Positions 5,004 through 9,800 of a DNA stretch of 38,435 nucleotides are shown here, piece by piece (the stretch's first letter is position 1; the number at the start of each line of letters is the position of its first letter). The notes under the pieces are model-generated. The model did no database searches and was not told the DNA's origin. It saw only the letters and a program-made list of their open reading frames with translations. Source of the DNA: a virus (taxonomy: Duplodnaviria > Caudoviricetes); IMG/VR virus record IMGVR_UViG_3300020045_006043, positions 1-38,435 of that record. One strand, given 5' to 3'. Both the position numbers and the translations under genes were made by a program.

Positions 5004-5062
5004 TTTCCTACTATCTCCTAATGTGGGTAAGAGGGCTGGCTCATCACCGGCCCTCTTTTTTT
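5004..5062 (+). ncRNA. Candidate anti-Shine-Dalgarno small RNA
   Basis: 5' segment CCTACTATCTCCT complementary to the phage RBS AGGAGATAG, followed by a terminator; no + strand ORF here. Confidence 0.5.
5029..5062 (+). terminator. Intrinsic terminator between convergent operons
   Basis: AAGAGGGCTGG-ctcatca-CCGGCCCTCTT followed by a T-run. Confidence 0.85.
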
Positions 5063-5522
5063 ATATCAAGCGTGCGTCGTATGTGATTGTGATTTTGTGA
5101 TCTCGTGCGGCGGTAATTAAGTCCTTTGCAGCCATGCCGGGTAAGCCGTCATTGCGAATGCCGTAGGATAGTAAAGCCCTTAAAAGCGCCTTTGATCCCA
5201 TTTCACAAGACAGATAGCGGTTATCGTGATTTTCTGCGTTTTTTGTATTCCCTAGAGCGCGGCCATCTTCTGCCCTTTTCCTGCGCTTTTCCCGTTCGTT
5301 CAAAATATAAGTATTGACTACCTCTATTTCACCTTGGGATGGCTTGTGGCCATCTTTTAGTGATTTGGCGTAATCTGGTTTTCCGAGGGATTCAGCGCAT
5401 AATCTGGACATGCTGATCTTTAGTCTAGCGGCTTCCTTCTTTATTTTTGTGTGGAATGGGTGGGCATCTTTACCCGGCATAAATCCAAACCGCATCATCT
5501 TATGCTCTTCCATCATCATCAT
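5061..5522 (-). CDS. Hypothetical protein, possibly with an N-terminal HTH-like region
   Basis: ATGA overlap with the upstream regulator gene; basic and helical. Confidence 0.65.
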   Translation of the reverse strand: MMMMEEHKMMRFGFMPGKDAHPFHTKIKKEAARLKISMSRLCAESLGKPDYAKSLKDGHKPSQGEIEVVNTYILNEREKRRKRAEDGRALGNTKNAENHDNRYLSCEMGSKALLRALLSYGIRNDGLPGMAAKDLITAARDHKITITYDARLI

Positions 5523-5770
5523 TTCTCTCGTTTTGGAAAATCATCCACGGTCAATTGCTTGCCCTGTTTTTTGGCAATTCCGATCAAGATTGGCCAGTAC
5601 ACGTCAGGGATATACCCGCTGCGATTAACCCAGCTTTTCACCGTCGCAGGACTAAAATAACGGCCAAGGCTATTGCCAATAAGGCTGGCCACCGCATTAA
5701 CCCCGCCGAACATTTCCACAATGCGGGAAGTGCCTGCATTGACTGGCTCTTTTTTAGGTCTGCCCATCAT
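5519..5770 (-). CDS. Cro-like HTH regulator (carph-isopro-like)
   Basis: IVEMFGGVNAVA...PATVKSW..SGYIP..YWP.L pattern of Cro/YdaS-like phage regulators; RBS AAAGGA; first gene after a divergent promoter. Confidence 0.75.
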   Translation of the reverse strand: MMGRPKKEPVNAGTSRIVEMFGGVNAVASLIGNSLGRYFSPATVKSWVNRSGYIPDVYWPILIGIAKKQGKQLTVDDFPKREK

Positions 5771-8831: not shown

Positions 8832-9215
8832 ATGACAAAAAACCGAATATACTACATCGACATAGGCCCATATCCTGCGCATATTGGATTTACTGCCTGC
8901 CCCAAGATATTCAGGAAGGAAATGAAGCGCATAAGCGGTGAAAGCGATGTTGTGTTTATGCCAGAACATGCCGCAGCCGCCACGCACGCCCTTCTGAATA
9001 ATGACGGTGAGCTTTGCTGCATTATTACTTATGACAAAACAAGGAATATATCAAAGCCACAAATAGCAGCGCTGCTTGCGCATGAGGCAGTGCATTGTGC
9101 GCAAAAACTATGGGAGCGTATTGGCGAACATAGGCCCGGTGATGAGGCAGAGGCGTATCTTGTGCAGGCTATCACACAAGGATGCCTTGCGCAGCTGTGG
9201 GGTAATGAGGTATAG
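8832..9215 (+). CDS. HExxH (zincin-like) hypothetical protein
   Basis: LLAHEAVH followed by DEAEAY. Confidence 0.7.
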   Translation: MTKNRIYYIDIGPYPAHIGFTACPKIFRKEMKRISGESDVVFMPEHAAAATHALLNNDGELCCIITYDKTRNISKPQIAALLAHEAVHCAQKLWERIGEHRPGDEAEAYLVQAITQGCLAQLWGNEV

Positions 9216-9274
9216 GATGCACAAGACCCCCGCACGCCTCTCTATGAAGCGCACCATGCGGGGGGGGCACTGAA

Positions 9275-9392
9275 TTGCCGGGCCGGCGCTCCGTTAGGGT
9301 CGGGGGACTTGTCGGCCTCCTACTCGTCGCCATGCGAGGATTGGCAAGCTGCGTGACTCCAGTAATGGCTGACAGCCGGGAAAGACCGGCAA
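9275..9392 (+). ncRNA. Candidate multi-stem structured RNA
   Basis: Closing stem TTGCCGG/CCGGCAA; arms GGCCGGC/GTCGGCC, TCC..TCG/CGA-GGA and GCTG/CAGC with CCA-GTAA-TGG (GNRA loop). Confidence 0.55.
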
Positions 9393-9403
9393 CAGTTTCG
9401 AGT

Positions 9404-9528
9404 TAAGCGGGCGGCACGGATGGACGTGCACTGACTGAAAAAGTAGGACCACAAACGGCAGTCAGTTCGACAAACAAGCAGTGGGCGAAATAGTGCGTCC
9501 AAGCCGGTATCAAGCCCGGCCCCGCGTA
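9404..9528 (+). ncRNA. tRNA-like RNA with expanded anticodon loop
   Basis: Acceptor GCGGG/CCCGC; D-arm GCAC-ggatggac-GTGC; stem CTGACTG/CAGTCAG with a 21-nt loop; extra arm; T-arm GCCGG-tatcaagc-CCGGC. Confidence 0.65.
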
Positions 9529-9535
9529 TTGAATT

Positions 9536-9600
9536 GGGTTCTGTCAGGTCTAGGCTTGAACGTCTGATAGAGGTAAGTGAATGATTGCTGCATTCAGCCC
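9536..9600 (+). ncRNA. Candidate three-way-junction RNA
   Basis: GGGT/GCCC closing two hairpins, CTGTCAG/CTGATAG and TGAATG/CATTCA. Confidence 0.4.
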
Positions 9601-9603
9601 TTT

Positions 9604-9650
9604 GGGTGACGGCGGTAGGACCGGGGGAACCTAGTCGGAAGTCGCCACCC
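9604..9650 (+). ncRNA. Candidate long hairpin RNA with purine-rich internal loop
   Basis: GGGTGACGGC/GTCGCCACCC stem, GGTA/GGAA-type internal loop, GGAA tetraloop; followed by TTTCCTTT, so it may also terminate transcription. Confidence 0.45.
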
Positions 9651-9708
9651 TTTCCTTTAAGGTCCACCACCACATTAAAGGTTGTCAGCGCTTTCTTTAA
9701 AGCCCCAC

Positions 9709-9741
9709 AAAACAAAACCCCTTCCATTGCTGGAAAGGGGT
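9709..9741 (-). terminator. Terminator of the late (structure/lysis) operon
   Basis: - strand CCCCTTTCCA-gcaa-TGGAAGGGG then TTTTGTTTT. Confidence 0.75.
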
Positions 9742-9800
9742 ATGATTCGTTTTTACGGTTTTTCGTGTGTTTTTCTTAAATTATCTTTTAATATCAATGG

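What the first reader, a model, noticed from the sequence alone, without database searches (positions are those of the whole stretch)
9404..9528. tRNA mimic with intact elbow but a 21-nt loop in place of the anticodon
Seen, in tRNA order: acceptor stem, 2-nt linker, 4-bp D-stem with a GG-containing loop, 7-bp stem with loop AAAAAGTAGGACCACAAACGG, a long variable region with an extra hairpin (GGGCG/CGTCC), and a 5-bp T-stem with 8-nt loop TATCAAGC. There is no CCA. ACAAAC occurs in both unpaired regions. Established: tRNA-shaped scaffolds are processed by RNase P, as the P1 C4 antisense RNA is. Inference: a non-decoding RNA that displays guide or protein-binding loops, or decoys tRNA-targeting defence nucleases.
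Basis: partly seen in the sequence, partly recalled or inferred. Interest (0 to 1): 0.7.

Follow-up and report, generated by a model that had tools for sequence, protein, structure and literature searches.

The report
tRNA shell carrying swappable RNA pseudoknot
This phage has a tRNA-shaped gene with no anticodon, holding in its place a conserved insert predicted to fold as a knot; hundreds of other phage sequences keep the same frame around different inserts, so it is likely a natural, host-processed carrier for exchangeable RNA decoys whose targets are untested.

Summary
Real, and larger than reported. 9404-9528 belongs to a widespread family of phage tRNA-shaped RNAs not found in Rfam 15: covarying acceptor stem, C8-G9 linker, 5-bp D stem with GAWGGA loop, invariant A48, 8-nt T-loop, no encoded CCA. 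101 of 118 D-arm-seeded loci carry the matching T arm and acceptor strand (controls 12-22). The anticodon/variable region is a 41-208-nt insert: 310 inserts fall into 262 classes, and 8 of 11 pairs with homologous flanks hold unrelated inserts. The window's insert is one of 8 distinct members of a class seen only inside such shells. Covariation supports two helices and a loop-loop pseudoknot (CCAC 9449-52 with GTGG 9481-84; A-U here, G-C in 7 relatives). I found no self-targeting signal, partner gene or expression data. Best reading: an RNase P-matured natural 'tRNA scaffold' displaying aptamer-like RNA decoys for host proteins (0.45). The scan noted similar shells on other DNA, probably including this family (e1-3291758); none of the notes I saw describes this pseudoknot.

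The parts
9404..9411 (+). Acceptor-like stem, 5' strand (7-bp register 9405-9411; predicted RNase P cut before 9405)
   Evidence: family covariation; cut site inferred
9412..9413 (+). C8-G9 linker (C in place of tRNA U8)
   Evidence: CG 150, CA 11 of 161; the descriptor required C[AG]; one search found it without that requirement
9414..9429 (+). D arm: 5-bp stem, GATGGA loop with G18 G19
9430..9502 (+). Exchangeable insert in place of anticodon and variable arms; member of a conserved 8-sequence class
9430..9466 (+). Insert helix P1 (9430-37/9459-66) with 21-nt loop holding conserved AAG-N-AGG-R-CCRC
   Evidence: 7 of 7 pairs counted have a change on both sides, 87.5% of cells paired
9447..9486 (+). 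Predicted pseudoknot: CCAC 9449-52 with GTGG 9481-84, A9448.G9485 (G.A in some relatives), G9447-C9486
   Evidence: 100% of cells paired, one both-side change, in the window itself; A.G/G.A swap seen in alignment
9469..9499 (+). Insert helix P2 (GAC 9469-71 with GTC 9497-99) enclosing conserved AACAAGCAG 9473-81 and GAAATAG 9487-93
   Evidence: 4 of 4 family pairs have a change on both sides, 78% paired; 3 of the 4 pair in the window
9502..9520 (+). A48, then T arm GCCGG/CCGGC with 8-nt loop TATCAAGC
   Evidence: A before the T stem in 97 of 101; among 8-nt loops, position 6 A in 89 of 89 and 75 of 75, positions 3 U and 4 C nearly invariant
9521..9528 (+). Acceptor-like stem, 3' strand; no CCA follows
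   Evidence: NCCA in 6 of 232 family members
9228..9264 (+). Neighbour: abiF-like hairpin with no AbiF (Abi_2) gene in the genome
   Evidence: Rfam RF03085, 37.3 bits vs cut-off 37; PF07751 0 of 1
9369..9392 (+). Neighbour: short hairpin motif shared with unrelated phages
   Evidence: all 20 phage records hit match within 9367-9402; near 9 of 233 family elements
9717..9741 (-). Terminator-like hairpin closing the converging late operon; the element is the last part of the + strand operon

Best explanation
The element is a tRNA-shaped shell with no anticodon, likely cut out of the phage's early transcript and protected by the host's tRNA-maturing enzymes, and it displays an exchangeable insert, here a predicted kissing-loop pseudoknot, that likely acts in trans as an aptamer-like decoy for a host protein such as a defence effector. 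Shown: the shell is conserved and covaries across hundreds of phage sequences; the insert differs between phages with homologous flanks; this insert class is conserved in fold and unpaired bases; no same-strand gene follows it in this phage; no phage protein travels with it. Inferred: transcription from the early operon; RNase P cleavage before 9405 and 3' trimming; protection from decay, as in the engineered tRNA scaffold; exchange of inserts by recombination in the near-invariant D and T arms; binding of a host protein. Odds for the steps: shell as a processing and stabilising chassis about 0.75; insert as the business end about 0.7; partner is a host protein about 0.6 given the first two.
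For: Shell: 101 of 118 and 84 of 109 D-arm-seeded loci have a T arm plus complementary acceptor strand (controls 12-22 and 8-18). All four Watson-Crick pair types occur at acceptor pairs 2-7. G at +1 in 52% vs 22% and 29% at the neighbouring positions, U-1 41%, A73 45% of 232, as expected for a 7-bp RNase P substrate (recalled rule). Same-strand tRNA genes lie next to it in phiKX1, L563 and L579. Exchange: 8 of 11 pairs with both flanks homologous have inserts at baseline identity, e.g. L026/L089 with flanks 97-98% and insert 51% (baseline mean 48%). Insert under selection: the whole structure has 86% of cells paired vs 64% in shuffles, 0 of 500. 10 of 18 scan hits carry the GYGG partner that was not in the pattern, and all 10 lie in tRNA-shaped frames (6 standard, 4 divergent, the latter judged by eye and pair counts). 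A second class was inside a shell in 8 of 8 hits, and in L447 the shell has decayed while the insert is intact. No gene partner in cis or trans. An orphan abiF-like hairpin lies beside it here and in L023; abiF motifs neutralise AbiF toxin in trans (10.1101/2025.04.15.648962, passages).
Against: No binding partner is identified, and expression and processing are untested. Over all 233 inserts the folding z-score is no better than flanking DNA (median -0.26 vs -0.29), although MFE folding ignores pseudoknots. 230 of 310 inserts have no relative, so their conservation is not shown. The pseudoknot helix rests on one both-side change plus the A.G/G.A swap; 3 of its 5 pairs never vary. The structure was written by hand from these same 8 sequences. 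The window copy has an A.G mismatch in the acceptor and lacks the inner pairs next to P1 seen in some relatives. C8, the 8-nt T-loop and stems that often run past 7 bp (30 of 232 reach 14) may hinder RNase P. No host RNA that the insert could mimic was found in 401 or 151 genomes. abiF adjacency is 2 of 233 and the window's hit only just passes the cut-off. RNase E-like RNWUU sites are not clearly above shuffles.
Confidence: 0.45

Rival explanations
1. The shell is the active part: an anticodon-less tRNA elbow mimic that soaks up tRNA-binding host factors or tRNA-targeting defence nucleases, with the insert a tolerated passenger.
For: The shell is by far the most conserved part. Inserts vary 41-208 nt and on average fold no better than control DNA. 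13 of 310 inserts hold tRNA T-loop relics.
Against: Within classes the inserts keep invariant unpaired bases and covarying helices. The same insert persists in divergent or decayed shells (L574, L575, L585, L447). Anticodon nucleases read the anticodon loop, which is absent (recalled).
Confidence: 0.15
2. The insert binds a small molecule (for example a nucleotide immune signal or a metabolite) as a free riboswitch-like sponge, or is a ribozyme.
For: Compact two-helix-plus-pseudoknot fold with many invariant unpaired purines, the pattern typical of riboswitch aptamers and small ribozymes (recalled). No common downstream gene, so not a cis switch.
Against: No Rfam riboswitch or ribozyme family matches any class member at E<=10 (the weak twister-sister hit in L585 lies outside the insert). 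Stoichiometric sponging needs very high RNA levels.
Confidence: 0.15
3. It is a C4/CI-like antisense RNA whose loops pair with phage or host mRNAs.
For: Works-like precedent: C4 is RNase P-processed and its variable a' loop sets specificity (PMC5320573, passages). One 10-nt antisense match to each window loop exists.
Against: Own-genome matches equal controls. The two-loop test gave 4 sites vs 0-5 in 21 other genomes. The loop is engaged in a pseudoknot and is conserved, not variable, across unrelated phages. No tyrosine integrase. Host mRNA targets were checked only by one BLAST of one other insert.
Confidence: 0.12
4. It is a processing signal in cis: the shell only directs RNase P cleavage of the polycistronic transcript.
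For: It often sits among tRNAs or before terminase or HNH genes.
Against: Here and in phage DMCA a converging gene follows. It does not explain conserved inserts.
Confidence: 0.07
5. It is a decayed tRNA, an attP relic or an intron-bearing tRNA.
For: The T-loop resembles a tRNA T-loop with one extra base; no CCA.
Against: The non-canonical features are fixed across the family rather than random. Inserts share no conserved ends or core. No tyrosine integrase.
Confidence: 0.04

Closest known systems
Engineered tRNA scaffold of Ponchon and Dardel (PMC3753655, passages)
   Same: Acceptor stem, D and T arms kept; anticodon stem-loop replaced by an RNA of interest that is then processed and protected by host factors.
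   Different: That one is man-made on a canonical tRNA body. This is natural, has C8, a 5-bp D stem, an 8-nt T-loop and no encoded CCA, and only 48 of 233 inserts are predicted to close with a single outer helix.
C4 antisense RNA of P1/P7 (Rfam RF01695; PMC5320573, passages)
   Same: Phage RNA on a constant multi-stem frame with a variable specificity region; RNase P processing (predicted here).
   Different: No model match. The insert is 41-208 nt and folded, not a 7-11-nt loop. No own-genome target signal; no integrase found.
YrlA-type bacterial Y RNA (PMC4201824, passages)
   Same: Non-decoding RNA with D and T arms; the M. smegmatis one is cut by RNase P and gets CCA added.
   Different: No Ro60/TROVE gene, no Rfam match, true tRNA order of arms, exchangeable insert.
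tmRNA tRNA-like domain
   Same: Acceptor and T arm flank a large non-anticodon domain (recalled).
   Different: G3.U70 in 2 of 232, NCCA in 6 of 232; intact D stem; no tmRNA call by ARAGORN or Rfam.
T4 RNA C/D (species 1, 2) and T5 RNA1/RNA2
   Same: Phage tRNA-like stable RNAs of unknown role in tRNA clusters (recalled, and named in earlier scan notes; search gave no paper on them).
   Different: Sequences not compared here. This family had no match in 5,426 E. coli genomes and occurs mostly with Alpha- and Betaproteobacteria.
Phage RNA decoys: Racr anti-CRISPR RNAs (PMC10651486) and rAcrIIA1 (10.64898/2026.06.03.729762), both listing and abstract start only; pseudo-ToxI (recalled)
   Same: Phage small RNAs that jam host immune proteins by shape; the proposed role of the insert.
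   Different: Those copy a known host RNA and have no tRNA shell. No host counterpart of this insert was found.

Membership tests
Decoding tRNA (RF00005) | Anticodon stem with 7-nt loop | tested here: not met
   21-nt loop on an 8-bp stem; ARAGORN 0, Rfam none
Decoding tRNA (RF00005) | U8, 3-4-bp D stem, 7-nt T-loop | tested here: not met
   C8, 5-bp D stem, 8-nt loop across the family
Decoding tRNA (RF00005) | 7-bp acceptor plus 5-bp T stem; G18 G19 and U55 C56 A58 | tested here: met
   the window has one A.G mismatch; tertiary contacts are inferred
C4 antisense RNA | Match to the C4 covariance model | tested here: not met
   no hit at E<=10 against all Rfam 15 families
C4 antisense RNA | a' and b' loops complementary to two nearby sites in an own mRNA | tested here: inconclusive
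   4 two-loop sites vs 0-5 in 21 control genomes; start-site test at control level; loop windows were offset by one base
C4 antisense RNA | RNase P processing | not testable with these tools
   only +1/-1 base biases
YrlA Y RNA | Adjacent Ro60/Rsr gene | tested here: not met
   PF05731 0 of 1; no shared neighbour protein
YrlA Y RNA | Match to Y RNA models | tested here: not met
tmRNA | G3.U70 alanine identity and CCA | tested here: not met
   2 and 6 of 232; neither in the window
tmRNA | Tag reading frame / model match | tested here: not met
Known riboswitch or small ribozyme (insert) | Rfam model match | tested here: not met
   window and 8 loci of the class, E<=10
Known riboswitch or small ribozyme (insert) | Ligand binding or self-cleavage | not testable with these tools
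   needs in-line probing and a cleavage assay
Type III antitoxin or Racr-type decoy (insert) | Similarity to a host antitoxin or CRISPR repeat | tested here: not met
   no Rfam hit; not found in 401 or 151 genomes searched
T4 RNA C/D, T5 RNA1/RNA2 | Sequence and structure homology | not tested
   sequences not fetched; no T4 or T5 record among the 22 phage hits to the T arm

The most novel reading that the evidence does not exclude
Phages of Alpha- and Betaproteobacteria share a natural plug-and-play RNA display system: one non-canonical tRNA chassis into which a library of more than a thousand folded RNA modules (Chao1 about 1,460 classes) is swapped by recombination. Each module is a natural aptamer against a host immune protein or immune signal, an RNA counterpart of anti-defence protein islands, and this pseudoknot is one such aptamer.
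Probability: 0.25. Interest if true: 0.92.

Novelty: new variant of a known kind. Interest (0 to 1): 0.76.

Why it matters
It would be a natural version of the laboratory tRNA scaffold, and a large pool of folded phage RNAs that ARAGORN and Rfam miss and that 5 cultured-phage records leave unannotated at this site. The invariant arms act as search handles, so the insert library can be listed and screened as a pool against defence systems. It also makes the old question of what anticodon-less phage tRNA-like RNAs do directly testable, because one member lies in Caulobacter phage DMCA, whose host is a laboratory strain.

Tried and rejected
No close relative of the locus: the upstream protein found 0 relatives; none of 44 endolysin-related loci held the T arm; BLAST of 9210-9800 hit only the upstream hairpin. 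Sequencing runs: none was listed. Two insert searches built on window-specific letters failed: the metagenome pattern gave 4 chance-like hits without a shell and the double-ACAAAC pattern gave 0; the class appeared only after the second D-arm scan. Partner protein: the largest flanking family was in 7 loci; across 22 genomes the two largest clusters (terminase and a chained structural cluster) reached 15. Self-targeting was negative. A host BLAST of one insert gave only chance matches (best E 0.3). RNase E motif: 29% and 28% vs 27% and 24% in shuffles. D-loop/T-loop covariation, prompted by a recalled likeness of the T arm to twister P4/L4: none seen. The DMCA neighbour is an ISL3-like transposase by eye, not TnpB. 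CsrA sponge: set aside because the GGA is the ordinary D-loop GG and most hosts lack CsrA (recalled). The - strand ORF 9320-9727 has no PHROG match. The automatic gene-orientation tally was discarded: spurious ORFs overlapped 70 of 134 elements. Whether each GTDB hit lies in a prophage was not tested. Literature: searches (exact motif strings, 0 papers) gave no description of this family. Fremin et al. (PMC10690425): passages read, no motif hit in the supplements searched, but files 1, 2 and 4 were not searched and may hold models of the D or T arm.

Full report
Setting. The window is a whole 38,435-base phage record with direct terminal repeats. Its capsid protein is 80% identical to that of phage Pan3. 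Recombination and helicase genes run on the + strand up to 9215; structural and lysis genes run on the - strand down to 9801. No tyrosine integrase, Ro60 or AbiF gene was found. The finding lies in the gap between the two operons, after an abiF-like hairpin and a short hairpin shared with unrelated phages, and before a terminator-like site.

Observation. ARAGORN and Rfam see nothing there. Small corrections: the D stem has 5 pairs, the central stem 8, and the acceptor has one A.G mismatch.

The family. The 18-base T arm occurs exactly in about 500 stored viral stretches and the commonest D arm in about 690; both are estimates from partial scans of 120 hits each. To avoid circularity I seeded on the D arm and looked downstream with no sequence assumption. 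101 of 118 distinct loci had a 5-bp hairpin followed at once by the complement of their own 5' acceptor strand, against 12-22 when acceptor strands were swapped between loci. A second D-arm variant gave 84 of 109 against 8-18. A descriptor found 161 distinct elements in real loci and 0 in shuffled ones. Fixed features: C8-G9; a 5-bp D stem whose fifth pair is G-C or U-A; loop GAWGGA; A before the T stem; an 8-nt T-loop with U, C and A at positions 3, 4 and 6; NCCA in only 6 of 232 and G3.U70 in 2. G is enriched at +1 of a 7-bp acceptor (52% vs 22% and 29% beside it), which fits RNase P (recalled rule, not a test). In GTDB, 108 loci held the T arm and 77 the full element by the strict descriptor; most titles name Alpha- or Betaproteobacteria. 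There was no match in the E. coli collection. Cultured phages Pan3, phiKX1, DMCA and QDWS595 carry it without annotation, and phiKX2 has the same T arm. Of 30 carrier records, 29 matched a T-arm pattern, nearly all once; G030 has two true copies. ARAGORN tRNAs lie within 1.5 kb in 17 of 92 loci with full flanks.

The insert is exchanged. Inserts are 41-208 nt. Of 11 pairs with both flanks homologous (not independent), 8 have inserts at chance identity and 3 have homologous inserts. 310 distinct inserts form 262 classes, 230 of them singletons. Against my reading, inserts as a whole fold no better than control DNA. Within classes, however, stems change in compensating ways while unpaired motifs stay. 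One class was found 8 times, always in a shell, and once in a decayed shell with the insert intact.

The window's insert. BLAST clustering left it alone. A larger set and a more sensitive alignment placed it with L259, L553 and L563. A pattern built from the conserved loop and linker gave 18 viral hits. 10 of them also had the GYGG partner, which the pattern did not ask for, and those 10 lie in tRNA-shaped frames: 6 standard and 4 divergent (the script's strict shell test failed on these 4; I judged them by eye and by pair counts). The other 8 look like chance coding matches and score at most 18.6 bits with the insert model, against 79.5 for the window, which is in the model. On the 8 distinct sequences, my hand-written structure has 86% of cells paired against 64% in shuffles (0 of 500) and 36-40% when slid. 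P1 has 7 of 7 and P2 4 of 4 pairs with both-side changes. The pseudoknot is fully paired, with G-C in 7 relatives and A-U in the window, and the adjacent A.G is G.A in four relatives. The fold is thus two hairpins whose loops kiss, with invariant unpaired AAG, AGG and AWCAAGCAG. No Rfam family matches, no neighbour protein is shared, and the motif was not found in 401 alphaproteobacterial genomes by pattern or 151 genomes of the phylum by model (samples only, no positive control).

How it most likely works. Shown: a constant tRNA-like shell, an exchangeable insert, a conserved insert fold, and no partner gene. Inferred: the RNA is made at the end of the early operon and is cut by RNase P and trimmed, as M. 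smegmatis YrlA and C4 are (PMC4201824, PMC5320573; passages). It is shielded from decay as in the engineered scaffold (PMC3753655; passages). It presents the pseudoknot in trans. With no phage partner and no base-pairing signal, a host protein is the most likely ligand, and the diversity of inserts suggests an arms race. The neighbouring orphan abiF-like hairpin fits a small island of RNA decoys, since abiF motifs neutralise their toxin in trans (10.1101/2025.04.15.648962; passages), but that adjacency is seen in only 2 of 233 loci. I put this reading at 0.45; shell-as-decoy 0.15, small-molecule sponge or ribozyme 0.15, antisense 0.12, cis processing signal 0.07, relic 0.04.

Comparison and novelty. 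It is built like the laboratory tRNA scaffold and may be matured like C4 and YrlA, but it fails the membership tests for tRNA, YrlA and tmRNA and has no C4 model match. Ten literature searches, one with the exact motif strings, gave no description. The library lacks most subscription journals, and three supplementary files of PMC10690425 could not be searched. Earlier notes of this scan describe anticodon-less shells with variable inserts on other DNA. e1-3291758 shares words with a family member and is probably the same shell; the leucine-type shells of other notes appear to be different bodies, which I could not check. These notes are leads, not support. Verdict: a real feature and a new variant of the non-decoding phage tRNA-like RNAs, with a pseudoknot module I found described nowhere; function untested; interest 0.76.

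Noticed in passing
window 9228-9264: Orphan abiF-like hairpin (Rfam RF03085, just over cut-off) with no Abi_2 gene in the genome; the same pairing with the shell in L023 (41.1 bits). Possible antitoxin mimic.
   Followed up: partly
window 9369-9392; L122, L123, L124: Hairpin motif nearly identical in unrelated phages of E. coli, Stenotrophomonas, Pseudomonas, Acinetobacter and cyanobacteria, mostly intergenic; no Rfam match and no paper with the string.
   Followed up: partly
window 9535-9660: A further long hairpin and a GC-rich stem-loop downstream of the element, so 9216-9720 may be an array of small RNAs (z only -1.2).
   Followed up: partly
L072:1531-1601 (-), L099, L170:36630-36695, L364, L385: Nested tRNA relics inside the shell; L072 scores 47 bits as tRNA; 13 of 310 inserts carry a T-loop-like word.
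   Followed up: partly
L442-L449: Second insert class with invariant GAAGCUGUAG and a GUA/GAA internal loop resembling a loop-E (bulged-G) motif (recalled); in L447 the shell has decayed.
   Followed up: yes
L328, L338: Insert hairpin whose loop resembles the window's abiF-like loop by eye; no Rfam hit at E<=5.
   Followed up: partly
L040, L086, L116: Insert class with GAGCCG...CGGTTC flanks that recall the base of group II intron domain V (recalled).
   Followed up: no
L261:1-249: A phage-encoded permuted tmRNA lies directly upstream of a family member.
   Followed up: no
L249 (G030:31249, 31452); L204; L054: Two shells in tandem about 200 nt apart in L249; two descriptor hits also in L204 (inside a large tRNA array) and L054; L397 has two on opposite strands.
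   Followed up: no
L574, L575, L585: Divergent shells (D loops ATGATGA, TAATGGT, GGCTGA) holding the window's insert class, implying further shell subfamilies that my patterns missed.
   Followed up: partly
L026, L089, L106, L317, L441: In several members, among them betaproteobacterial ones, the acceptor is sealed by a long extension ending TGATGGTG (17 bp or so), which may be an RNase III-type or CCA-blocking stem.
   Followed up: no
L216:1703-2296, L024:24-680: Two unknown 190-250-aa protein families often lie just upstream of the element and before terminase genes, in the slot of a late-gene activator (PHROG 15385, 21451; no function).
   Followed up: partly
window 5061-5770 (-): Small AT-richer reverse-strand island inside the early operon with no PHROG or Pfam match.
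   Followed up: no
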